Shown in pieces: positions 20,631-55,521 of a stretch of 64,000 nt of DNA. This stretch comes from Beijerinckiaceae bacterium. Its GTDB lineage: Bacteria; Pseudomonadota; Alphaproteobacteria; Rhizobiales; Beijerinckiaceae. The stretch is from the NCBI GenBank assembly GCA_947474545.1, contig CANJJI010000002.1:3623-67622 (forward strand), given 5' to 3'. A model generated the notes under the pieces. That model was not told where the DNA came from. It saw only the letters and a list, made by a program, of their open reading frames with translations, and searched no databases. How positions within the stretch are numbered: the stretch's first letter is position 1; the number at the start of each line of letters is the position of its first letter. The translations under genes were made by a program, and so were the position numbers.

Positions 20631-20706
20631 TGGTGGGCCGGGAGGGACTTGAACCCCCAACCAGACCGTTATGAGCGGCCGGCTCTAACCATTGAGCTAC
20701 CGGCCC
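20631..20706 (-). tRNA. tRNA with CAT anticodon, most likely tRNA-Ile2 (lysidine type)
   Basis: 76-nt cloverleaf GGGCCGG-TA-GCTC...GAGC-C-GGCCG-CTCATAA-CGGTC-...GGGGG-TTCAAGT-CCCTC-CCGGCCC-A-CCA. G1:C72 pair excludes the initiator; Ile2 versus elongator Met is inferred from resemblance to alphaproteobacterial Ile2 genes. Confidence 0.95.
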
Positions 20707-46180: not shown

Positions 46181-48520
46181 ATGAACGAAGTCGTAAACCC
46201 GCACAAGTCGCAGCAACATTCCCGCCCGTGGAATGGCCGATATGAAGACGCAGCGCTGGTCAGCGGCCTCGGGAAATTCACCGCCGATGTGCAAGATTCT
46301 GCGCTTTCGGCGTTTTTCGTGCGCTCCCCCCATGCCCGCGCCAAAATCAAAAGTATTGATGTGTCCGCAGCCAAGGCCGCTAGCGGCGTCGTCGCGGTGC
46401 TGACGGCCAAGGATATGGAAGCAGCAGGCCTCGGCTCGGTCTCCGGCTCTATCCCCTTCCCCGGCCGCGATGGCAAAATGCCCGTGAGCCCCTTCCGTCC
46501 GGCGCTGGCAGGCACGCTGGTGATGCATGTCGGCGAGGCCGTGGCGCTCGTCATTGCAAAGACCGCCCGCGCCGCCGAAGACGCCGGTGATCTCGTAAAT
46601 GTCGATTACGACGTGCTCGAACCCGTCATCGATCTGGACAAGGCCAAATCCGGCAACGTGCAATTGTGGCCTGACGCTCCCGGCAACCTGACACTCGATT
46701 GGACGTCGCCCACCGATCCTGATGGCGCGAAACGCAACGCAACGGATGCCGCCTTCAAGGCTGCAAAACATCATGTCGCCATCGACGTCATGAACCAGCG
46801 CATTTCCGCCGTTGCGATGGAGCCGCGCGCCGCGCTTGCAAGTTATGACAAGGACAGCGACAGCTACACTATCCACACCGGCACCCAGGGCACGATGGGC
46901 GTGAAAGCGCAAATCGCCATGGCCATGAAAGTGGACATGCCGAAAATCCGCGTGCTCTCGACAGATGTCGGTGGCGGCTTTGGCATGAAGGCTTCAATCT
47001 ATGCCGAATATCCGGCGTTGCTCGCTGCAGCCAAGATCACCGGCCAGAAGGTGCAATGGACCGCCACGCGCACGGAATCCTTCCTCACCGACAATCAGGC
47101 CCGCGATTCCCGCTGGCATGTCGAACTCGCGTTCGACGATGACGGCAAATTCCGCGCGTTGAAAATAGACGGCGACCAGAATGTCGGCGCCTACATGACC
47201 GGCGTGGCCGTGCTGATCCCCACCATTCACATCGCTGGCTGCATGCCGAGCGTCTATGACATCCCCAATGTTGTCGTGGATTCCCGCTGCTATTTCTCCA
47301 ACACTGTGCCCACCGGCCCCTATCGCGGCGCCGGCCGTCCAGAAGCGAACTTCCTGCTGGAACGCGTGATTGACGCTGCCGCGAAAAAGCTCGGCATGGA
47401 CCCGGCCGAAATTCGCATCCGCAATCTCATCCAGCCCTCGCAAATGCCCTATCCGACGACGCTCGGCCCTGCCTACGACAGCGGCGACTTCCCCATGATT
47501 TTTGAATCGGCAATGAAAGCTGCCGATTACAAGGGCTTTGCCGCCCGCAAGGAAGCCTCGAAAAAGAATGGCAAGTTGCGCGGCATCGGCGTCTGCGGCT
47601 TCCTGGAAATTTCGGGTGGCCATTATCATGAGCCCGCGCGCCTGCTCTTCAAGGGCGGCAAGATCGAAGTCGGCATCGGCCCCGTGCCACAGGGACAGGG
47701 CCATATCACCGTCTTCAAGCAGATGGTGTCCAAGCGCCTTGGTATTTCCGACGATCAGATCGAAGTCCAATTCGGCGACAGTGCGAAGGATGTTCCCGGC
47801 TTTGGCGCGGTGGCTTCCCGCACGGCGATGCTGACCGGCAGCGCCGTCGCTATCGGCGTCGATAAGATGCTCGAAAAAGCCTATGCGGTGGCGCAAACCC
47901 TGCTGCAGGCTGGTGAAGGCGAAGTCAGCTATCACGATGGCCTCTTCGAGCGCAAAGGCACGGGGCAGACGATTGGCTTGTTCGATGTCGCCGCCCGTGC
48001 GGAAGAAATGAAAAAACAGGGCGCAATAGCGGAAAGCCTCGACACCGAATCAAACGCCGATACGGGCCCCTCCTTCCCCAACGGCTGTCACATTGCCGAA
48101 GTGGAGATTGATCCCGGCACCGGTGAGACTGTCGTTGTCGCCTATACCGCCGTTGGCGATACCGGCATTGTTCTCAACGAGCGTATCGTCGAAGGACAGG
48201 TGCAGGGTGGCGTCGTGCAGGGCATTGGTCAGGCGCTGGGCGAATACAGCCAGTACGACAACGACAGCGGCCAGTCTGTCGCAGCCAGTTTCATGGATTA
48301 CACCATGCCGCGCGCCCACAACGTGCCGATGCTGAACGTCATCCACCACCCCGTGCCCTGCAAGACAAACTATGTCGGAGCCAAAGGCACTGGGGAAGCC
48401 GGCACAACCGCCGCGCCGCCGGTCATTGTCAGCGCAGTAGAAAACGCGATTTCAGACAAATTCCTGAACCTGCAGATGCCCGTGACGCCGCAGAAAGTGT
48501 GGAAAGCGTTGCAGGGCTGA
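46181..48520 (+). CDS. Xanthine dehydrogenase/CoxL-family molybdopterin large subunit (form II-like)
   Basis: VRSPHARA, DVGGGFGMK, PYRGAGRPEA, GQGH, FPNGCH.AEVEID, KGTGEAG. Confidence 0.9.
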   Translation: MNEVVNPHKSQQHSRPWNGRYEDAALVSGLGKFTADVQDSALSAFFVRSPHARAKIKSIDVSAAKAASGVVAVLTAKDMEAAGLGSVSGSIPFPGRDGKMPVSPFRPALAGTLVMHVGEAVALVIAKTARAAEDAGDLVNVDYDVLEPVIDLDKAKSGNVQLWPDAPGNLTLDWTSPTDPDGAKRNATDAAFKAAKHHVAIDVMNQRISAVAMEPRAALASYDKDSDSYTIHTGTQGTMGVKAQIAMAMKVDMPKIRVLSTDVGGGFGMKASIYAEYPALLAAAKITGQKVQWTATRTESFLTDNQARDSRWHVELAFDDDGKFRALKIDGDQNVGAYMTGVAVLIPTIHIAGCMPSVYDIPNVVVDSRCYFSNTVPTGPYRGAGRPEANFLLERVIDAAAKKLGMDPAEIRIRNLIQPSQMPYPTTLGPAYDSGDFPMIFESAMKAADYKGFAARKEASKKNGKLRGIGVCGFLEISGGHYHEPARLLFKGGKIEVGIGPVPQGQGHITVFKQMVSKRLGISDDQIEVQFGDSAKDVPGFGAVASRTAMLTGSAVAIGVDKMLEKAYAVAQTLLQAGEGEVSYHDGLFERKGTGQTIGLFDVAARAEEMKKQGAIAESLDTESNADTGPSFPNGCHIAEVEIDPGTGETVVVAYTAVGDTGIVLNERIVEGQVQGGVVQGIGQALGEYSQYDNDSGQSVAASFMDYTMPRAHNVPMLNVIHHPVPCKTNYVGAKGTGEAGTTAAPPVIVSAVENAISDKFLNLQMPVTPQKVWKALQG

Positions 48521-48528
48521 GAAGGCTG

Positions 48529-48631
48529 GTCATCCCGGAAAATCGCGCAGCGATTTATCCGGGACCTTTTTGTTATCGCAAGATGCGGCAGACGGTCCCG
48601 GATAAAATGCTTCGCATTTTTCCGGGATGAC
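48529..48631. repeat. REP-doublet element
   Basis: gtcatcccggaaaatcgcgcagcgatttatccgggac...gtcccggataaaatgc...ttttccgggatgac; between convergent genes. Confidence 0.85.
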
Positions 48632-48637
48632 GGCCCG

Positions 48638-50245
48638 CTACTTCCGCATCAGGTGATAACTCAAATCTCCCGGATTGGTCAGGTCAGGCACCGTCCAGCC
48701 GTTGAGATCATATTCGCTCATGCATTGCTCGGCGAAACCCTTGAAGCGATCAGCATCGCCCGACGCCATCGCCCCGAACAGACAATAGCGGCGAATTTCT
48801 TCGGTTGAGCCCCCGTAGTTGATTTCATAAAGCTCATGCCGCCCGCCAAATTCCGTACCGAGCGTATCCCACAACAGCTTCATCAACTTCACGCGTTCTT
48901 CAGCCTTGTAGCCATTGGAGCCGCGCAGATATTTGTCGAGATAGGGTCTGATTTCTTCATTCTGGAAATCGCGCGCATGAGAATTAAGATAAATCAGGCC
49001 CGAAGCCACAGTCTGCTCGATGATATATTTCACCTTGGTGTAGGCCATGGTGGCGATGATGTGATAGGCGCTGCCCGGATTCATATTCGGCAGAACAAAA
49101 TCTTTGATCCACGGTTTGGGATCCCTGACCATCGCATCGCTCAACGCCCAGAACAGATTGCGCCAGGCGATGACCTCTCCAACATTCGCCTGCACCCCGC
49201 GAAAATCCTTCGTGCCTGAGGCTTCCACCGCCTTGAGCAACAACCCGGCAATAAAGTCGAGTTTGACAGCCAGACGTGTGCACCCATGCACGACAAAGCG
49301 TGGCAGAAAACCCGTGCGCGGGAAGAAATTATTCGCCTTCTCCACATCGCCATAAACAAACACGTTCTCCCAGGGGATGAGCACCTTGTCCATGATGAAA
49401 ACCGCGTCATTTTCATCGACGCGGCTCGACAGCGGATAATCGAAAGGCGAGCCCATTGCAGTAGATGTCATCTCATAGGATGTGCGGCAGATGAATTTTA
49501 CGCCAGGCGCATTGGTCGGCACCATGAACACGGTGGCGAATTTCTTGTCCTGCACAGGCAGCAGGCCGTGATGCGCAACAAAGGTGTAATTGGTCAGCAC
49601 AGAACCCGTCGCGACCACCTTTGCGCCAGATACAATGAGGCCAGCATCGGTCTCGCGTTCCACATGGCAACAGACATCCGACACTTCATTCGGCGGCTTA
49701 TCGCGATCAACCGGTGGATGAATGATCGCGTGATTCACGAAAGGAACGCGCTCCTGGCTATATTTATACCAGCGCTTCGCATTGGCTTCATAAGGTGCAT
49801 AGAATTCGGAATTCGCGCCAAGCGTCGCCAGAAACGCGGCCTTGTAATCGGGCGCGCGGCCCATCCAGCCATAGGAAATCTTCGCCCATTCGGCGATCGC
49901 GTTACGGCTGGCGAGCAAATCCTCCATCGACTTGGGCGCCTTGAAAAAGGCATGGGTCATGCCGCCCGAGCCGGTGTCCGTCGGCACCATGATCCCCTTG
50001 GATTTCTCCGGATCATGCATCGCGTCGTAAAGACGCGCGACCATGCGGGCCGTGTTGCGGAAGGCCGGATGAACAGTGACATCGGCGACCTTCTCGCCAT
50101 AGATATAAACACAGCGTCCATCGCGCAGCGAAGCCAGATATTCATCGCCGGTTTGTGGCTTTGTGTGGGAGCCTTGTCCGGTGCTTGCCGGCAACGTGTT
50201 GAAAGCTGCACGGGCGGCGAGATCGGCGTCTGAAAGTTCTGTCAT
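48638..50245 (-). CDS. hpaB: HpaB/PheA1-type two-component flavin monooxygenase, oxygenase component
   Basis: [62 protein letters not shown]. Confidence 0.88.
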
Positions 50246-50392
50246 AGATTTCTCCCCTTATTCCAAAAAACCAACTTCATTCTGCGGAGCGCCTGCAAGG
50301 TCCGTCTCGAAAGATGGGCAACACGTACCAACCCCGCCTTCACTATTGTCGCGCGCCGTTTCCGCACTACCCGAATTCGAGCATGATGCCCA

Positions 50393-51907
50393 CTATTGCG
50401 CCACGTGAACAATCCTGAGCTGCGGCAGGCCCCAACAGGAAACGCCCATGTCACGGGCCATCGCAGCCAGTCCCTCGGTTTCTATATATCCCTTGTAGCT
50501 GTAGCAGGGAAAATTGAGCCCGTCCCGATGGAGGTTCGCCCGCACCAGCAAGGCCGTCCCGCCTACAGAATCGACCTGTGTCAGCGGCTGCGCCTCAAAA
50601 CTGTCGAGATAACGCCGTCCCGCGCCTTCCGGTGGCTGATGCAGGCCATCCAGCATGTAACGGGGGTTTAAAGTGTCGCTTTCGCGCCGCTCAAAACAGA
50701 AAGTGTTCAAGTCAAATGTCGCCCCGTTTGGAAGCACGCAGTGCGGCACAACGATATCCTTGCCTGTCTCCAGCAAGGCCTTCAGTAGATTCCCCGGATA
50801 TGTCTCCAGATCCCCGTCGAGCCAGAGCACCCATTCCTCTTCACGCAGCGCGTTCATCAGCAATCTGTTGCGCGCCCGTGCGATTGCGGCGCGCCTGACC
50901 AATTGAATTTCAGGCTTCCATCGGGGTTCCGGGAGAATGATCCCCTGATTCCATTGGGTCAAAACAATGCGATGAAATCGCGAATCATGAAGTTGAGCGA
51001 TGGACTGGAGCGCGTCGAATGTTCCGTCTGTGCTATCCCCTTCAAGAATGCCAAGGCTCAATTTCTCCGGCGGATAATCCAGCCGTTCAAGCAGATCAAA
51101 ATATCTGGTGAGATGCTGCTTGCAATTCTTCATGGGGGTAAGAACAAGCACCTCAGGCAAAGCATCATTCTGCGGGGCGAGTGTTATGGCCGAAGTTTTC
51201 GCCCCCAGCGCCAGGTCTCCGGACGCCTCGGCCCGGAACCAGTTTCCTTCCCAATAATGGCACCCGAAAGCCTGCCTTGTCTTTGAAGTAAAAAAATCAA
51301 CATCCAGATGTCTGCCTTCCCAGCATTCATCCTTGTCGAGAGGATAAAGCACGTCCTGCGCCAATATGCTGATGTCCCTGGACGGGAAACTGTCAAGCGC
51401 CCGGGTAAAAGCGAACGGCCCGGTTCTATCCAGCACGTCCGTCGATTGGCGGCTCTTCCTTAATTGGCTGAACAAATGCGTCCAGAACGGATGCAGTTTC
51501 TCAGAGGCTATGAAGGCATTGCATACTATCCGGGAGAGGCCGGACTGCGTGAATGCAATCACTTTTGCAGAATGCGATTCTGGTTCAAGGCCTGCCACGA
51601 ATCGCTTTCCCTCGAGCAATTCATCGACAGGCCTCAGGCATTCATAGTCGAGGTCCGCGTAGATACCGCCAAACCTGTACAAGATCAGATATCGCGCCAG
51701 ATCGACACGGCAGATTGAATCTGCATACCCATGGTAGATGGTGGACCATTCCGGAAACGACGAAGCAAGCAGACCTTCTATGAGTTCGTCGGTCCACAAC
51801 CTGTATTCGTAACCCCGATTATGGCGGCGCCAGCTATCGCGCACGTCCTGCTGCCTTGGCTTCAGCTGCTCATTTTTCCAGATCTGATGAATTATTTTCG
51901 GTATCAT
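50393..51907 (-). CDS. Two-domain glycosyltransferase: GT32 (OCH1-like) fused to Anp1/Mnn9 (GT62)-like domain
   Basis: N-terminal IPKIIHQIWK, RVDLARYLILYRFGGIYADLD, TGPFAFT; C-terminal VLVLTPMKN, LDYP, RR..IARARN.LL, WVLWLDGD, DIVVPHC, FDLN, DSVGGTALLV, IETEGLA.MA. Confidence 0.75.
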   Translation of the reverse strand: MIPKIIHQIWKNEQLKPRQQDVRDSWRRHNRGYEYRLWTDELIEGLLASSFPEWSTIYHGYADSICRVDLARYLILYRFGGIYADLDYECLRPVDELLEGKRFVAGLEPESHSAKVIAFTQSGLSRIVCNAFIASEKLHPFWTHLFSQLRKSRQSTDVLDRTGPFAFTRALDSFPSRDISILAQDVLYPLDKDECWEGRHLDVDFFTSKTRQAFGCHYWEGNWFRAEASGDLALGAKTSAITLAPQNDALPEVLVLTPMKNCKQHLTRYFDLLERLDYPPEKLSLGILEGDSTDGTFDALQSIAQLHDSRFHRIVLTQWNQGIILPEPRWKPEIQLVRRAAIARARNRLLMNALREEEWVLWLDGDLETYPGNLLKALLETGKDIVVPHCVLPNGATFDLNTFCFERRESDTLNPRYMLDGLHQPPEGAGRRYLDSFEAQPLTQVDSVGGTALLVRANLHRDGLNFPCYSYKGYIETEGLAAMARDMGVSCWGLPQLRIVHVAQ

Positions 51908-51996
51908 TCAGACGGCCCGGAATTGAAGCATTGGCTTGGGCTTCACCCCGTGGATCAACCAGAAGGCAGCGATCCCCCGGGATGAGAAAACCGCCC

Positions 51997-52770
51997 CTAA
52001 CGCATCACACTTCCGCCATCGCACACCAGCGTCTGCCCGGTCATGAAATCGCTGTCGGGCGAGCAGAGGAAGGCCATGGTGCCGACCAGGTCGGACGGAA
52101 CCTGTTCGCGCTTGAAAGCGCGTGTGTTCATGGTCGCTTCTGCGCCACGCCCGGTAAGGAAGCCAGCGGCGACGACGCCTTCGCTCATGGTCAGGCCCGG
52201 CGCGATGGCGTTCACGTTGATCCCGAACTCGCCAAGCTCGCGGGCAAGGCAGCGCGTGAAAGCGACAATCGCACCCTTCGAAGAAACATAGTGGGTGATG
52301 CCCACCTGTCCCTTGAACACCGTGCCGGAAGCAATATTGACGATCTTGCCGCTCTTTTGCTTGATCATATGTGGCGCGATGGCTTTGGAAATCAGGAAGG
52401 GGCCGCGCACATTCACAGCCATCACCTTGTCCCATTCGTCTTCCTCGATTTCCCAGAATGGGCGAGTCTTCAAATTGGCAAACAAGGCCGCGTTATTGAC
52501 CAGGCCATCGATCTTGCCGTGACGGTTCAAGGTGTCGTCGACCAGATCCTGCACCGATTGCGCATCGGTGACGTCCGCCTTCATGAAATTCGCCTTGCCG
52601 GAATTGGAAATACGGTGGGCTGTGCCAGTTCCGTCCAGCACGTCGGCGATGACGACTTTCGCCCCCTCCGAGCAAAGCCGTTCGGAAAAGGCCGCGCCGA
52701 TGCCGCGCGCGCCGCCTGTCACGATGATGACCTTGTCTTCGAGCCTCCCGCTACGTTCCGGTCCTGCCAT
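51997..52770 (-). CDS. SDR family oxidoreductase
   Basis: TGGARGIG, NNAA, YVSSKG; start moved to MAGPE. Confidence 0.9.
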   Translation of the reverse strand: MAGPERSGRLEDKVIIVTGGARGIGAAFSERLCSEGAKVVIADVLDGTGTAHRISNSGKANFMKADVTDAQSVQDLVDDTLNRHGKIDGLVNNAALFANLKTRPFWEIEEDEWDKVMAVNVRGPFLISKAIAPHMIKQKSGKIVNIASGTVFKGQVGITHYVSSKGAIVAFTRCLARELGEFGINVNAIAPGLTMSEGVVAAGFLTGRGAEATMNTRAFKREQVPSDLVGTMAFLCSPDSDFMTGQTLVCDGGSVMR

Positions 52771-52889
52771 GCTTTCCTCCCCTGATTTTGATTGGCCGCT
52801 GTAATGTGCAGTCTGTCGTCTGGAATAATGGCATAACCCGGCCAATTGCCGGGCGTCTATAGCACAGAGCGTGCCTCAAGCTGAAAGGT

Positions 52890-52978
52890 GTCGTCCCGGA
52901 CGCCAAAGGCGATCCGGGATCGTAATGTTATTGGCCACTCCCGATACCGGATAATCCCTGCGCGATTTCCAGGATGAC
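52890..52978. repeat. REP-doublet element (reverse orientation)
   Basis: 3' end ccggataatccctgcgcgatttccaggatgac is the reverse complement of the REP core; 5' end gtcgtcccgg. Confidence 0.7.
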
Positions 52979-53113
52979 AAACCCCGCCAAAATCCGCGGC
53001 CCACAGCTTGCGCACAATGCCCCAGCCCGGCTAAAGAGATGCCGGGCGGGCGGCATGATGCCCGATTGAACCGGCACTCCGCCTCGCAAACCATTTCGGG
53101 AGAGAAGCAGCCC

Positions 53114-53599
53114 ATGGAAGTCAAACTTACAGTGAACGGCAAGCCGGTCACGGCAACAGTCGAACCCCGCACACTCCTTGTGGAGCTGATCCGCGAACAG
53201 CTGCGCCTTACCGGCACGCACGTTGGCTGCGACACAACCCAGTGCGGCTGCTGCGTCATCCATTTAAATGGCGAAGCCGTGAAGTCCTGCACCATCCTGG
53301 CCGCCCAATGCAACGGCAAGGACGTCTTGACCATCGAGGGCCTTGCCAAGCCGGACGGCACGCTGCACCCCATGCAGGCAGCATTCCGTGAGCATCACGG
53401 GTTGCAATGCGGGTTCTGCACACCGGGCATGGTGATGATGGGCGTCGATATCGCCCGCCGCTTGCCGGGAGCTGATGAAAAGACTGTCCGTCAGGAGCTG
53501 GAAGGCAATATCTGCCGCTGCACCGGCTATCAGGGCATCGTTCAGGCCATTCTCTCCGTGGTGAACCCCGCAGCTGTGAAGGATCATCATCATGCGTAA
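53114..53599 (+). CDS. CoxS/CutS-like 2x[2Fe-2S] small subunit
   Basis: GCDTTQCGCC, QCGFCTPG, GNICRCTGY; start moved to MEVKL. Confidence 0.92.
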   Translation: MEVKLTVNGKPVTATVEPRTLLVELIREQLRLTGTHVGCDTTQCGCCVIHLNGEAVKSCTILAAQCNGKDVLTIEGLAKPDGTLHPMQAAFREHHGLQCGFCTPGMVMMGVDIARRLPGADEKTVRQELEGNICRCTGYQGIVQAILSVVNPAAVKDHHHA

Positions 53600-54383
53600 T
53601 TTCGAATATCACATTGCCACTGATGTGAACGCGGCTGCAGCCTTGCTGAAAGCCAAGGAAGACGGCAAGCTGATGGCGGGCGGCATGACCTTGCTGCCGA
53701 CCCTGAAACAGCGCCTCGCCGCCCCGTCCGATGTCATCGACATCGGCTCGATCAGCGCACTCAAGGGCATCAGGAAAGATGGCGACAGCATCGTCATAGG
53801 CGCGATGACCCGGCATTTCGACGTCGCCCATTCCGATGTGGTGAAATCCGCTATTCCGGCGCTGGCCTCGCTGGCAGGCCAGATCGGCGATCCCGCTGTG
53901 CGCCACCGCGGCACCATCGGCGGCTCCATCGCCAACGCAGATCCCGCCGCTGATTATCCCGGCGGCTGCATGGGCCTCGGCGCAACCATCGTCACCAACA
54001 AGCGCCAGATCAAGGCCGATGATTTCTTCACCGGCCTGTTCGAAACCGCGCTTGAGAGCGACGAGATCGTCACCGAAGTGCGCTTCCCCATTCCCCAGAA
54101 AGCCGCCTATCAGAAGTTCCGCCATCCCGCGTCCGGCTATGCCGTTGTTGGTGTAATGGTCGCGAAATTCGCTGATGGCGTGCGCGTAGGCGTGACCGGT
54201 TCTGGCCCGAATGCCTTCCGCGCCAAGGATTTTGAAGCCGCGCTATCAAAAGATTTTTCCGCCAAGGCGATTGAGAACGTGAACCTCAAGGCCGATGGTC
54301 TGCTGAGCGACATTCACTTCAGCGCCGAATATCGCGCCCATGTGACAGGTGTGCTGGCGCGCCGGGCTGTTGCTGCGGCCTGA
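53592..54383 (+). CDS. CoxM/CutM-like FAD-binding medium subunit
   Basis: AGGMTLLP.LKQRLA, VRHRGTIGGS, SDIHFSAEYR. Confidence 0.92.
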   Translation: MRNFEYHIATDVNAAAALLKAKEDGKLMAGGMTLLPTLKQRLAAPSDVIDIGSISALKGIRKDGDSIVIGAMTRHFDVAHSDVVKSAIPALASLAGQIGDPAVRHRGTIGGSIANADPAADYPGGCMGLGATIVTNKRQIKADDFFTGLFETALESDEIVTEVRFPIPQKAAYQKFRHPASGYAVVGVMVAKFADGVRVGVTGSGPNAFRAKDFEAALSKDFSAKAIENVNLKADGLLSDIHFSAEYRAHVTGVLARRAVAAA

Positions 54384-54489
54384 GGGTGGGGAAACCCGGC
54401 TCTATCGACTCCTCGCATCGCAAATCCTATCATCCTCCCCAAGCGGGAGGATGTTTGCTTTTTGGCCCCTCCGCATGAGGGAGGTGAAC

Positions 54490-55521
54490 ATGGCGCATAC
54501 AATGCGACGATCCGCACTGGCTATCGCTTTCGGGCTCGCGGTTTCCCCGGCCCTCGCCCAGGACATCGACCCCGGCCTGATCGAGCGCGCGAAAAAAGAG
54601 GGACAGCTCGTCTACTACACCGATCTCATCATCAACCAGATCGTCATCCCGCTCGAAAATGCCTTTGAGAAGAAATACGGCATCAAGGTTCGCTACACCC
54701 GCGCTGACAGCGATGGCAATGCATTGAAGCTGATTACCGAACACAAGGCCGGGAAGATACAGGGCGACGTTTTCTCCATGGCGACCGGCTTCCAGTCCAT
54801 GGTCAGGGCTGGTATCGTGCGGAAAGTGGACTTGAAGAATGCGCCTGCGCTGCAGCCACAATTTCGCGATCCAGATGGTTTTTGGGTCTCCTCGAATTAT
54901 TACGTGATGACCCCTGCGGTGAACAGCGATCTGGTGCCCGAAGCTGATCGCCCCCGGACATTCGACGACCTGCTCCACCCCCGCTGGCGCGGCAAGATCG
55001 CGTGGAAGCCGAACGATATGTCGGGCGCGCCGGGCTTCATCGGCAATGTCCTCGTCACCATGGGGGAAGAGCGAGGTCTCGCCTATCTCGAAAAGCTGCG
55101 CGCACAGCAGATCGTCAGCCTGCCCGGCAGCGCCCGCGCAGTGCTCGACCGGTCCATTGCTGGCGAATATCCGCTGGTCCTGCAAATCTTCAATCACCAT
55201 GCGGCCATCAGCGCCAAGAAAGGCGCGCCCGCGCAATGGATCAAGATGGAGCCAGCGACCGTGGTCACCGAATTGCTCGGCCTCACCAATAATTCGCCAA
55301 ACCCCAACGCAGCGCAACTCTTTGTCGAGTTTATGATTTCGCGTGAAGGCCAGGACCTGTTCCAGAAGGCCGGTTATTTCCCTACCCGCATGGACCTTCA
55401 CTCGGAATTCCCCGAGCTTGAGCCCAGCACCGGCAAGTTCAAGGCCAATGTGATCGGCCCGAAGGATGTCGACGAGAGCTACCCGAAATGGGCCGACCTC
55501 TATGCTAAGATGTTCCGCTGA
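54490..55521 (+). CDS. Orphan ABC substrate-binding protein (same broad family as 43898)
   Basis: AKKEGQLVYY, FEKKYGI, DLLHPRWRGKI, AGEY; start moved to MAHTM (GGAGG RBS). Confidence 0.85.
   Translation: MAHTMRRSALAIAFGLAVSPALAQDIDPGLIERAKKEGQLVYYTDLIINQIVIPLENAFEKKYGIKVRYTRADSDGNALKLITEHKAGKIQGDVFSMATGFQSMVRAGIVRKVDLKNAPALQPQFRDPDGFWVSSNYYVMTPAVNSDLVPEADRPRTFDDLLHPRWRGKIAWKPNDMSGAPGFIGNVLVTMGEERGLAYLEKLRAQQIVSLPGSARAVLDRSIAGEYPLVLQIFNHHAAISAKKGAPAQWIKMEPATVVTELLGLTNNSPNPNAAQLFVEFMISREGQDLFQKAGYFPTRMDLHSEFPELEPSTGKFKANVIGPKDVDESYPKWADLYAKMFR

What the first reader, a model, noticed from the sequence alone, without database searches (positions are those of the whole stretch)
50393..51907. Bacterial fusion of an OCH1-like GT32 domain with an Anp1/Mnn9-like GT62 domain
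Seen: a 504-aa protein with GT32 motifs at the N-terminus and Anp1-family motifs at the C-terminus; no signal peptide or TM segment is evident. It stands alone between catabolic genes, with no export or nucleotide-sugar genes nearby. Known: in yeast, Och1 (GT32) primes and Mnn9/Van1/Anp1 (GT62) elongate alpha-1,6-mannan as separate Golgi proteins. Inference: a single-chain primer-plus-polymerase, possibly making a mannan-like cytoplasmic or surface glycan. I cannot tell how often this fusion has been described.
Basis: partly seen in the sequence, partly recalled or inferred. Interest (0 to 1): 0.68.

Follow-up and report, generated by a model that had tools for sequence, protein, structure and literature searches.

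The report
Two-module bacterial glycosyltransferase, GT32 plus GT62
A freshwater soil-type bacterium carries a soluble enzyme joining two sugar-adding modules otherwise known from yeast cell-wall mannan synthesis; it is a trimmed-down member of a large, unstudied bacterial family of modular sugar-chain builders.

Summary
ORF 50393-51907 (-) encodes a 504-aa protein with an N-terminal GT32 module (Pfam 8.8e-16) and a C-terminal GT62/Anp1 module (1.7e-43). It has no TM segment, and no sugar or export genes lie within 10 kb. Every tested Mnn9 catalytic residue and the Och1 DxD/D/R residues are conserved, and the AlphaFold model shows two GT-A domains on a disordered tether.

The fusion is not rare. 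At least 307 bacterial species and 439 50%-identity clusters carry relatives. Most are three-module GT32-GT2-GT62 proteins, often next to or fused with further GT2, GT4, GT-D-like or sulfotransferase modules.

The window's protein is a secondary reduction. Its sister (99/100 bootstraps) is a 758-aa three-module allele at the same slot in a related MAG, and that allele's GT2 module has already lost its DxD motif. Flanking genes there are 94.5-99.4% identical, but the GT modules are only 58-61% identical, with saturated dS and sharp boundaries, so this is a swapped cassette.

Best reading: an active two-activity retaining glycosyltransferase from a glycan assembly-line family. The GT62 module probably uses GDP-mannose. 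The acceptor is unknown. "Primer plus polymerase of mannan" remains untested. No paper on bacterial GT62 was found.

The parts
50393..51907 (-). Complete gene for the 504-aa GT32-GT62 protein (stop codon included)
   Evidence: ORF list. In-frame TGA directly upstream of the ATG. Identical in 4 independent assemblies and on 5 contigs.
51236..51907 (-). GT32 (Och1-like) retaining GT-A module, aa 1-224
   Evidence: PF04488 8.8e-16. Och1 9n3s at 9e-15 by profile. Foldseek hits to Och1, YeGT, PaToxG and SetA. pLDDT above 90.
51647..51655 (-). GT32 DxD motif, D85-L86-D87
   Evidence: Aligned to Och1 D187-M-D189. D85 and D87 are invariant in 55 family members.
51158..51235 (-). Disordered inter-module linker, aa 225-250; this is where relatives carry the ~254-aa GT2 module
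   Evidence: pLDDT below 50 for residues 225-247. Pairwise alignment with the syntenic 758-aa allele P0002. 109 of 120 homologs have a ~260-aa insert here.
50396..51157 (-). GT62 (Mnn9/Anp1-like) retaining GT-A module, aa 251-504
   Evidence: PF03452 1.7e-43. Mnn9 3zf8 at 1.8e-37 by profile. Foldseek E 2.5e-20, TM 0.72 on the target.
50891..50896 (-). R338-R339, equivalent to Mnn9 R209/R210 (putative mannose pocket; R209A is inactive in yeast)
   Evidence: Alignments. R338 is invariant and R339 at least 90% conserved. Mutant data in PMC3787745.
50810..50818 (-). GT62 DxD motif, D364-G365-D366 (Mnn9 D236-A-D238)
   Evidence: Invariant in A2. D236N is inactive in Mnn9.
50711..50713 (-). D399, equivalent to Mnn9 D280
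   Evidence: Profile alignment 'rtfdlntf' / 'RPYDFNNW'. Invariant. D280N is inactive in Mnn9.
50405..50407 (-). H501, equivalent to the Mn2+-binding Mnn9 H389
   Evidence: At least 90% conserved. H389A is inactive in Mnn9.
50255..52000 (.). Divergent cassette: the GT gene plus both intergenic spacers, bounded by the SDR stop codon and the HpaB start codon
   Evidence: Sliding identity against syntenic L013 is 0.82-0.90 outside the cassette and 0.3-0.8 inside, with abrupt steps at ~52001 and ~50254. GC3 is 0.62 against 0.65-0.75 in the flanks.
51997..52845 (-). Upstream flank: short-chain dehydrogenase (conserved slot border)
   Evidence: PF13561/PF00106. 97.3% aa identity to L013.
48638..50245 (-). 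Downstream flank: HpaB-type flavin monooxygenase (conserved slot border)
   Evidence: PF11794/PF03241. 96.6% aa identity to L013.

Best explanation
The gene encodes a soluble, cytoplasm-facing enzyme made of two independent, Mn2+/DxD-dependent, retaining GT-A glycosyltransferase modules joined by a flexible tether of about 25 residues: GT32 at the N-terminus and GT62 at the C-terminus. It belongs to a large bacterial family of modular glycan-assembly enzymes whose commonest form is GT32-GT2-GT62. In this lineage the central inverting GT2 module first lost its catalytic motifs and was then deleted, which leaves a two-activity enzyme. Each module most likely adds one alpha-linked sugar to a growing glycan. 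For the GT62 module the sugar is probably mannose from GDP-mannose. The glycan is probably a lipid-linked surface or secreted polysaccharide precursor at the cytoplasmic face of the membrane, and the other biosynthetic and export genes would lie elsewhere in the genome. The gene sits in a discrete, compositionally atypical cassette that holds very divergent alleles in sister species, as expected for a determinant of variable surface glycans. Shown: the architecture, fold, intact catalytic residues, evolutionary reduction, cassette structure and family context. Inferred: the donor sugars, the alpha linkages, the acceptor, the cellular location of the product, and whether the enzyme acts once or repeatedly.
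For: Domain assignments and fold. All four mutationally validated Mnn9 residues (R209, D236, D280, H389) and the E364/T365 pocket are conserved, as are the Och1 DxD, D171 and R174 equivalents. There is no TM segment or signal peptide in the query, and only marginal hydrophobic peaks (1.6-1.9) inside domains in 6 of 120 homologs. Family architecture: 109 of 120 are GT32-GT2-GT62, 2 are permuted and 9 are short. At least 307 species carry a relative, and 439 cluster representatives score E<=1e-30. Secondary loss of GT2: the window protein is sister to the syntenic 3-module allele in 99/100 bootstraps and nested in the long-form clade in 85/100. The deletion lies exactly between the modules. The GT2 DxD, VIVxD and GED motifs are already lost in the sister allele and in 21 of 111 relatives. 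Still under constraint: dN/dS <= ~0.14 against the sister allele, and the sequence is identical in lake metagenomes from at least 5 studies, 2018-2025. Cassette: flanks are 94.5-99.4% aa identical with dS 0.5-0.8, while the GT is 58-61% identical with dS above 2.2 or saturated, has sharp boundaries and has lower GC3. Glycan-assembly role of the family: adjacent GT4 in 13 loci, and adjacent GT2 in 28+7 loci across phyla. A Wzt-type polysaccharide ABC exporter is present in L159. The Gemmobacter plasmid cluster carries GT25, pyruvyl transferase, formyltransferase and GT4. Single-chain fusions exist with GT4, GT-D-like, GT1/28-like, a second GT32 and a sulfotransferase.
Against: No partner GT, nucleotide-sugar or export gene occurs in the 64-kb window, so a role in a surface-glycan pathway rests entirely on relatives. 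Most relatives' loci also lack exporters. Donor specificity is inferred from conserved pocket residues only. GT32 members use GDP-Man, UDP-GlcNAc or UDP-Gal, so the N-module donor is open. No transcription evidence exists: no RNA runs hold the sequence, the promoter scan is at chance level, and the Shine-Dalgarno sequence is weak. The dN/dS estimate rests on a saturated dS. The bacterial GT62 lacks about 9 residues of Mnn9's hairpin loop, so acceptor handling may differ from Mnn9.
Confidence: 0.55

Rival explanations
1. One reading: a self-sufficient single-chain system in which the GT32 module primes an acceptor with one alpha-1,6-mannose (like Och1) and the GT62 module then extends an alpha-1,6-mannan (like Mnn9/Van1), giving a mannan-like homopolymer.
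For: Both yeast enzymes are the best solved-structure relatives of the two modules. The Mnn9 mannose-pocket residues and the Och1 residues proposed to hold the GDP-Man sugar (D171, R174, first D of DxD) are conserved. Recombinant Mnn9 alone can extend mannose to mannotriose (PMC3787745). The enzyme has no partner GT nearby.
Against: The ancestral and commonest architecture has an inverting GT2 between the two modules, plus extra GT2, GT4, GT-D-like or sulfotransferase partners, which argues for a heteroglycan. In yeast the processive polymerase is Van1 activated by Mnn9, not Mnn9 alone. The Och1 acceptor (the N-glycan Man8GlcNAc2 core) does not exist in bacteria. Identity to the yeast enzymes is only 17-28%, and GT32 donors vary. 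Mnn9's hairpin 'ruler' loop is shortened.
Confidence: 0.15
2. A cytoplasmic small-molecule glycosyltransferase tied to the neighbouring catabolic genes. It might glycosylate a hydroxylated aromatic or hydroxy-acid intermediate, or make a mannosyl-glycerate-type compatible solute.
For: The gene is on the same strand as the SDR and HpaB genes, 89 and 147 bp away. The SDR-GT-HpaB arrangement is kept in a second species. Per PMC3787745, the closest structural neighbour of Mnn9 is mannosylglycerate synthase, which glycosylates small hydroxy-acids. The protein is soluble and no exporter is present.
Against: Only 1 of 80 related HpaB loci carries the GT. The cassette boundaries, the non-homologous spacers and the low GC3 show it is foreign to the operon. 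Family-wide partners are other GTs and never catabolic genes. Two tethered GT modules are unnecessary for single-sugar transfer.
Confidence: 0.1
3. A protein-glycosylating effector or toxin, or a modifier of a contractile injection system, that uses the GT32 module like the Tyr-GlcNAc toxins PaTox and YeGT.
For: The N-module shows fold similarity to YeGT, PaToxG and SetA and a sub-threshold TcdA_TcdB hit (21.5 bits against a cutoff of 23.6). Two short-form homologs lie within 10 kb of eCIS/phage-tail-like genes. The allele pattern is hypervariable and cassette-like.
Against: The window gene has no secretion or translocation domain, no signal peptide and no eCIS genes nearby. PADLOC finds nothing. 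The similarity to toxins is the generic GT32/GT-A core at 17-22% identity. The GT62 module has no known toxin role. The eCIS-adjacent homologs are also flanked by GT2 genes.
Confidence: 0.07
4. A functionless remnant: after loss of the GT2 module the gene is on its way to decay and persists only by chance.
For: The sister allele's GT2 is already catalytically dead. There is no partner gene, the ribosome-binding site is weak, there is no RNA evidence, and amino-acid divergence is fast (dN ~0.31-0.34).
Against: The ORF is intact at 504 codons. The deletion falls exactly at module boundaries and is in frame. Every catalytic residue of both modules is retained. dN/dS is <= ~0.14. The model is confident (pLDDT 91.5). 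The sequence is identical across lakes and years. Independent short-form clades exist in cultured bacteria.
Confidence: 0.08

Closest known systems
Saccharomyces cerevisiae Mnn9 (CAZy GT62; PDB 3ZF8), with its paralogs Van1 and Anp1 of mannan polymerases M-Pol I/II
   Same: The C-terminal module matches Pfam Anp1 over essentially the whole profile. It has the same GT-A fold (TM 0.72 on Mnn9), the same DxD and C-terminal His metal ligands, and the same R209/R210, D280 and E364/T365 pocket.
   Different: Identity is about 28%. The window protein is bacterial, cytoplasmic and soluble, not a type II Golgi membrane protein. It is covalently fused to a GT32 module and is not part of a Mnn9/Van1 heterocomplex. 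Mnn9's hairpin loop is about 9 residues shorter. Activity is untested.
Saccharomyces cerevisiae Och1 (CAZy GT32; PDB 9N3S) and the bacterial GT32 toxins YeGT and PaToxG
   Same: The N-terminal module matches PF04488. It has DxD with a hydrophobic middle residue (D-L-D, typical of retaining GTs), conserved equivalents of Och1 D171 and R174, and fold hits at E ~1e-9.
   Different: Identity is 17-19%, with only moderate TM scores (0.38-0.47 on the target). The Och1 acceptor (an N-glycan core) is absent in bacteria. There is no toxin delivery domain. The donor sugar cannot be read from the sequence.
Bifunctional tandem GT-A polysaccharide synthases, e.g. E. coli K4 chondroitin polymerase K4CP (PDB 2Z86/2Z87)
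   Same: One soluble chain carries two GT-A catalytic modules, each with its own DxD site. It is retrieved by fold search over both domains. This is the best analogy for how the protein may work, with two different transfers by one protein.
   Different: The K4CP modules are both inverting GT2-type enzymes using UDP-sugars. Here both modules are retaining (GT32, GT62). Alternating polymerisation is not shown here. There is no sequence-family relationship beyond the GT-A fold.
The uncharacterised bacterial GT32-GT2-GT62 family (e.g. Azospirillum lipoferum 4B WP_014189957.1, Streptomyces ~800-aa proteins, annotated only as 'glycosyltransferase')
   Same: The N and C modules are orthologous (50-59% identity). 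The sister allele sits at the same chromosomal slot.
   Different: The window protein lacks the ~254-aa central GT2 module and has no adjacent GT2 or GT4 partner gene.

Membership tests
CAZy GT62 / Pfam Anp1 (PF03452) | Full-length match to the family profile above the curated threshold | tested here: met
   149.4 bits against a cutoff of 28.8; profile positions 20-262 of 263. All 10 homologs scanned also match.
CAZy GT62 / Pfam Anp1 (PF03452) | GT-A fold closest to Mnn9 | tested here: met
   The AF2 model (pLDDT 91.5) has 3zf8 as its top Foldseek PDB hit: E 2.5e-20, TM 0.72 on the target, rmsd 3.7 A.
CAZy GT62 / Pfam Anp1 (PF03452) | Catalytic residues shown essential in Mnn9: R209, D236 (DxD), D280, H389 | tested here: met
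   R338, D364-x-D366, D399 and H501 align to them and are invariant or at least 90% conserved in the family. The mutational data come from PMC3787745.
CAZy GT62 / Pfam Anp1 (PF03452) | Mn2+-dependent alpha-mannosyl transfer from GDP-mannose | not testable with these tools
   Indirect only: the mannose-pocket residues are conserved, and a Lys (K260) sits at the guanine-capping position, as in the GDP-Man enzyme RmMGS.
Fungal mannan polymerase subunits (Mnn9/Van1/Anp1 as cell-biological entities) | Type II membrane anchor, Golgi-lumenal location, hetero-oligomeric M-Pol complexes, hairpin loop I262-N283 | tested here: not met
   No TM segment. The organism is a bacterium. The hairpin region is about 9 residues shorter. 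Complex formation is not testable.
CAZy GT32 / Pfam Gly_transf_sug (PF04488) | Profile match above threshold, with DxD carrying a hydrophobic middle residue | tested here: met
   58.8 bits against a cutoff of 23. D85-L86-D87 aligns to Och1 D187-M-D189.
CAZy GT32 / Pfam Gly_transf_sug (PF04488) | Och1 donor-site residues D171, R174 and C-terminal His (H463) | tested here: inconclusive
   D69 and R72 align clearly and are invariant. H217 is invariant, but its alignment to H463 is low-scoring (domain 3).
CAZy GT32 / Pfam Gly_transf_sug (PF04488) | Fold similarity to solved GT32 structures (Och1, YeGT, PaToxG) | tested here: met
   Foldseek E 1.3e-9 to 2.8e-8, probability 1.00, TM 0.38-0.47 on the target.
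Bacterial GT32-GT2-GT62 modular family | Orthologous GT32 and GT62 modules in one chain | tested here: met
   All 120 best homologs carry both modules. The window protein nests within the family tree.
Bacterial GT32-GT2-GT62 modular family | Central (or C-terminal) GT2 module | tested here: not met
   A 26-residue linker takes the place of the ~254-aa module. No such module is present elsewhere in the window. Hence the protein is a reduced variant.
Tandem GT-A bifunctional polymerases (K4CP type) | Two catalytically competent GT-A modules in one soluble chain | tested here: met
   Competence is inferred from the conserved motifs.
Tandem GT-A bifunctional polymerases (K4CP type) | Alternating, repetitive transfer that produces a polymer; GT2-family modules | not testable with these tools
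   The modules are GT32 and GT62, not GT2, so the protein is not a sequence-family member. Polymerisation needs an assay.
Glycosylating toxins (TcdA/TcdB GT44; PaTox/YeGT) | Toxin GT profile above threshold plus a delivery or secretion module | tested here: not met
   TcdA_TcdB scores 21.5 bits, below the 23.6 cutoff, and over 38 residues only. There is no extra domain and no signal peptide. PADLOC finds nothing.

The most novel reading that the evidence does not exclude
Bacteria possess a widespread, unstudied single-chain counterpart of the fungal outer-chain mannan machinery: GT32 and GT62 modules working together on GDP-mannose to build alpha-mannan-type chains in the cytoplasm. If so, GT62, treated in the literature as a fungal family, would have a deep bacterial history, or would have been exchanged between bacteria and fungi. 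The window's minimal two-module enzyme would then be the simplest natural version in which to dissect priming and elongation.
Probability: 0.15. Interest if true: 0.7.

Novelty: new variant of a known kind. Interest (0 to 1): 0.45.

Why it matters
GT62 is discussed in the literature as a fungal cell-wall family; a 2017 survey found PF03452 only in fungi (PMC5225481). No paper on a bacterial member could be found here. Yet hundreds of bacterial species encode GT62 modules, almost always welded to GT32 and usually to further GT modules. Characterising one member would assign function to a large 'glycosyltransferase' annotation class and could reveal new bacterial glycans. It would also give a soluble, bacterially expressible model for Mnn9- and Och1-type chemistry, since Och1 itself could not be expressed in bacteria (PMC12312940). 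The window's copy is the most reduced form, with two active modules and no partners, so it is a convenient minimal test object. The locus also gives a clean natural example of module inactivation followed by module deletion, and of cassette-like allele replacement inside a conserved gene neighbourhood.

Tried and rejected
(1) SDR-anchored scan of JGI metagenome contigs, to find more occupants of the slot or empty slots. The best SDR hit was only 69% identical and no locus was syntenic. Dead end.

(2) Exact-peptide scan of GTDB genomes with the window protein found only one distant partial hit. The alignment-based scan was needed.

(3) RNA runs: none hold the gene, so there is no expression evidence.

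(4) An intermediate-divergence variant for an unsaturated dN/dS. Runs with partial word share turned out to hold the identical allele at low coverage.

(5) Promoter and terminator scan of 48.4-53.2 kb. Counts are at shuffle level, so it is uninformative.

(6) Defence-system and phage libraries. PADLOC finds nothing. The only PHROGs match is an unannotated family, to the GT32 module.

(7) NCBIfam has no meaningful hit.

(8) Literature searches for bacterial GT62, Anp1, Mnn9-like, OCH1-like and COG3774 returned only fungal or plant papers and metagenome CAZy counts. The GT-A fold-wide analysis does not treat GT62 or GT32.

(9) Considered that the 504-aa form was an assembly artefact or a truncated gene. 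Rejected on four independent assemblies across the junction and the complete flanking genes.

(10) Considered that the short form was the ancestral state. Rejected for this lineage by the tree, although a basal Hyphomicrobiales/Rhodobacterales short-form clade may be ancestral for the family.
Full report
**1. The observation**

The window has an ORF at exactly 50393..51907 on the minus strand, encoding 504 aa. An in-frame TGA immediately precedes the ATG, so the N-terminus (MIPKIIHQIW...) is fixed, and it coincides with the family's N-terminus.

- Pfam finds Anp1/PF03452 at E 1.7e-43 (149 bits against a cutoff of 28.8; residues 250-469, covering profile positions 20-262 of 263).
- Pfam finds Gly_transf_sug/PF04488 at E 8.8e-16 (residues 18-103).
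- The generic GT2 profile scores far lower (2.5e-8) and lies inside the Anp1 region.
- The nearest solved structures by sequence are yeast Mnn9 (3zf8) and yeast Och1 (9n3s). With a profile of nine short-form homologs the E-values become 1.8e-37 and 9e-15.
- No 19-residue window exceeds a Kyte-Doolittle mean of 1.32, so there is no TM anchor or signal peptide.
- The 19 genes called in window 40393-61907 are catabolic, transport or housekeeping. They comprise a Mo-hydroxylase, HpaB, an SDR, amidohydrolases, solute-binding proteins, RecQ and others.
- Four independent lake-metagenome assemblies reproduce the gene, including the inter-domain junction, with zero differences.

**2. Structure and catalytic competence**

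An AlphaFold2 model built on a 55-sequence alignment has mean pLDDT 91.5. Residues 225-247 are disordered and pTM is 0.56, so the model shows two confidently folded domains without a fixed mutual orientation.

Foldseek against the PDB puts Mnn9 first (E 2.5e-20, TM 0.72 on the target). It recovers Och1, YeGT, PaToxG and SetA for the N-module. It also recovers tandem GT-A enzymes such as chondroitin polymerase K4CP and LH3 over both domains.

I used the residue numbering recovered from the alignments (chain index + 90 = Mnn9 number). The four Mnn9 residues whose mutation abolishes activity (R209, D236, D280, H389; PMC3787745) correspond to R338, D364, D399 and H501.

- The proposed mannose-pocket residues R210 and E364/T365 correspond to R339 and E476/T477.
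- The guanine-capping Q124 corresponds to K260, and the GDP-Man-dependent mannosylglycerate synthase also has a Lys (K9) at that position.
- In the GT32 module, D85-L-D87 aligns with the Och1 DxD, and D69/R72 align with Och1 D171/R174.

All of these are invariant or at least 90% conserved across 55 family members. One difference from Mnn9 is that about 9 residues of its distinctive hairpin loop are missing.

**3. The fusion is common, and usually larger**

A search of 5.8 billion proteins returned 418 hits among the scored candidates. All of the best 120 contain both modules.

- 109 carry an insert of about 260 residues between the modules, which Pfam recognises as GT2.
- Two carry that same GT2 module at the C-terminus instead (51% identical to the central module of an Azospirillum protein).
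- Nine, including the window's protein, are two-module short forms.

These include Azospirillum (often on plasmids), Streptomyces, Amycolatopsis, Caulobacteraceae, cyanobacteria, Planctomycetota and Verrucomicrobiota. They also include a separate short-form clade in Mesorhizobium, Aminobacter, Hoeflea, Kaistia, Nitratireductor, Prosthecomicrobium, Bauldia and Rhodobacteraceae.

An exhaustive HMMER pass over 1.84 billion cluster representatives found 439 at E<=1e-30 and 4,766 at E<=1e-10. Public annotation calls these proteins just 'glycosyltransferase'.

No paper on a bacterial GT62 or on this architecture was found. A 2017 survey reported PF03452 only in fungi.

**4. What the family does, judged from its partners**

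I clustered all ORFs within 10 kb of the gene in 88 loci. The only neighbours conserved beyond a single genus are other glycosyltransferases.

- A GT4 lies immediately adjacent in 13 loci of the Hyphomicrobiales/Rhodobacterales-type short-form clade.
- A GT2 of about 320 aa lies just downstream in 28 loci, mostly Streptomyces.
- A different GT2 lies downstream in 7 loci (Azospirillum, Parabeggiatoa, Planctomycetia).

One locus also has a Wzt-type polysaccharide ABC exporter. On a Gemmobacter aquarius plasmid the short form sits in this cluster: formyltransferase, GT25, polysaccharide pyruvyl transferase, Mur-ligase-family protein, GT4, [GT32-GT62], GT25.

Larger single-chain relatives join the same modules to further ones:

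- GT32-GT2-GT4-GT62.
- GT32-GT2-GT-D-like-(GT4)-GT62.
- GT1/28-like + 2xGT32 + GT2 + GT62 (1,757 aa).
- GT4-GT62.
- GT62-sulfotransferase.

The GT4 that is a neighbour in some genomes is therefore a fused module in others. Taken together, these modules behave as parts of assembly lines for complex glycans. Export genes are usually not adjacent, so the final location of the product is not established.

**5. The window's protein is a reduced allele in a swapped cassette**

Searching with the neighbouring HpaB gene found a 7.3-kb contig of a related MAG, L013, labelled Rhizobium sp. Q54 (Hyphomicrobiales). It is syntenic with window 47996-54606.

- The flanking proteins are 94.5-99.4% identical: FAD subunit, 2Fe-2S subunit, SDR, HpaB and Mo-hydroxylase.
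- At the same slot L013 carries a 758-aa three-module protein whose GT32 and GT62 modules are only 61% and 58% identical to the window's.
- The length difference is exactly the 254-residue central module. The window protein passes from ...HYWEGNWF through a short linker straight into LPEVLVLTPMKNCK.
- Nei-Gojobori estimates give dS 0.51-0.78 and dN/dS 0.005-0.056 for the flanks. For the GT they give dS 2.2 (N-module) or saturated (C-module), with dN 0.31-0.34, so dN/dS is at most ~0.14.
- GC3 is 0.56-0.63 in the GT against 0.65-0.75 in the flanks.
- Sliding identity steps from 0.82-0.90 down to 0.3-0.8 exactly at the SDR stop codon (~52001). It steps back up at the HpaB start (~50254), so both intergenic spacers belong to the divergent segment.
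- None of the other 79 HpaB loci has the GT.

On a tree of the shared GT32+GT62 columns, the window protein is sister to the syntenic long allele in 99/100 bootstraps. It lies inside a clade of long forms, free of other short forms, in 85/100.

The sister allele's central module has already lost the GT2 hallmark motifs: WDDDD has become WISGSY, VIVxD has become VIVAS, and GED is gone. The same is true of 21 of 111 module-bearing relatives, among them P0003 and P0005, whereas the related P0004 keeps WNDDD.

The most economical history is a three-module ancestor at this slot, followed by inactivation of GT2 and then its clean deletion in the window's lineage. The excess synonymous divergence and the sharp boundaries indicate that the two alleles are much older than the surrounding genomes. 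That fits cassette exchange by recombination in the conserved flanks, as at loci for variable surface glycans. A locally elevated mutation rate cannot be excluded.

The short allele is identical in lake-water metagenomes of at least five studies from 2018-2025. The long allele occurs in other freshwater samples, including samples from one of the same studies.

**6. Mechanism proposed**

*Shown.* The protein has two independent GT-A modules, each with a complete metal/DxD site, on a flexible tether. It is soluble. It is under purifying selection. It is a member of a family whose modules co-occur with other glycan-building enzymes.

*Inferred from the known stereochemistry of GT32 and GT62 (both retaining families).* Each module forms an alpha-glycosidic bond.

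*Inferred from the conserved Mnn9 pocket.* The GT62 module uses GDP-mannose. The GT32 donor is open, because characterised GT32 enzymes use GDP-Man, UDP-GlcNAc or UDP-Gal (PMC12312940).

*Inferred from family context.* The acceptor is a glycan intermediate, probably lipid-linked at the cytoplasmic membrane face. The remaining pathway genes would lie outside the window.

Whether the two modules act once each or alternately and repeatedly (as in K4CP-type polymerases) is unknown. I put about 0.55 on this general picture.

**7. Rivals**

It conflicts with the family's ancestral inclusion of an inverting GT2 and its varied partners. It also conflicts with the fact that in yeast Van1, not Mnn9, is the processive enzyme.
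- A small-molecule glycosyltransferase serving the adjacent catabolic genes (about 0.10) is suggested by strand and spacing. It is contradicted by the cassette boundaries and by the lack of any such association elsewhere.
- A toxin or effector role (about 0.07) rests on generic GT32 fold similarity and on two eCIS-adjacent homologs. The window has no delivery features.
- A decaying remnant (about 0.08) is contradicted by the intact motifs, the in-frame boundary-precise deletion, the dN/dS value and the stable population-wide sequence.

**8. Comparison with the known, and novelty**

The C-module meets the sequence, fold and catalytic-residue criteria of GT62. The N-module meets those of GT32. 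Neither activity was or could be tested.

The protein is not a fungal-type mannan polymerase subunit: it has no membrane anchor, no Golgi location, a shortened hairpin, and is fused where those subunits are complexed. It works most like tandem GT-A bifunctional synthases, but it is not a sequence relative of them.

It is a reduced variant of an abundant but uncharacterised bacterial family. I therefore rate it a new variant of a known kind, with moderate interest (0.45). The architecture is already visible in databases and the chemistry is conventional. Against that, bacterial GT62 is unstudied, the minimal two-module form is an attractive experimental handle, and the inactivation-then-deletion trajectory inside a swapped cassette is unusually clear.

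Noticed in passing
L005 1-12093 and the P0100 contig (no DNA held): Two short-form GT32-GT62 homologs (P0081, P0100; 46-47% identical to the window protein) lie within 10 kb of contractile-injection or phage-tail-like genes. These include an AAA+ ATPase with a WHD domain, a 1,519-aa eCIS_core/DUF4157 protein, a run of ~181-aa paralogs, and a Tail_P2_I/NHL baseplate-like protein. Both homologs are also flanked by GT2 genes. It is unclear whether the GT glycosylates the particle, is cargo, or is just a neighbour.
   Followed up: partly
window 46181-48520 (+) and 53039-54383 (+): The large (MoCo) subunit gene of a CoxL/xanthine-dehydrogenase-type molybdenum hydroxylase is separated from its 2Fe-2S and FAD subunit genes by three minus-strand genes (HpaB, the GT and the SDR). 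The same split arrangement is present in L013.
   Followed up: partly
P0006 and P0012 (734-738 aa; metagenomic): A circularly permuted architecture, GT32-GT62-GT2. The C-terminal GT2 is 51% identical to the central module of Azospirillum proteins and keeps its DxD motif, so the module has moved within the chain.
   Followed up: partly
21 of 111 long-form relatives (e.g. P0002, P0003, P0005, P0029, P0049, P0074): The central GT2 module has lost its DxD, VIVxD and GED motifs in whole clades (notably the Caulobacteraceae-type proteins) yet is retained at full length. It may serve as a pseudo-enzyme spacer or scaffold.
   Followed up: partly
P0121, P0124, P0131 and others (1,100-1,837 aa): Giant single-chain proteins combine up to five glycosyltransferase modules: GT1/28-like, two GT32, GT2, GT-D-like, GT4 and GT62. 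One GT62 is fused to a sulfotransferase (P0181). These look like glycan 'megasynthases'.
   Followed up: partly
window 51908-51925 vs 50246-50265: The GT has no obvious Shine-Dalgarno sequence before its ATG (…ccgggccgtctgaATG), whereas the downstream HpaB has a strong one (aaggggagaaatctATG). This could mean low translation of the GT.
   Followed up: no
L007/L254 (Azospirillum plasmids), ~370 bp upstream of the long-form GT, opposite strand: A NUDIX hydrolase with an NDP-sugar-hydrolase-type N-domain (PF28549) is conserved next to the Azospirillum GT genes, along with PhoX and toxin-antitoxin pairs. It may regulate nucleotide-sugar supply.
   Followed up: no
window 52050-52196 in read-laying output: Apparent 'joints' and many loose ends in the SDR gene come from short conserved SDR motifs shared with abundant paralogs in the metagenomes. 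They are not rearrangements of this locus.
   Followed up: yes
window 20631-20706 (-): The single tRNA gene in the window is tRNA-Met (CAT). It is not near the GT cassette, so it is no evidence for tRNA-targeted integration of the cassette.
   Followed up: no
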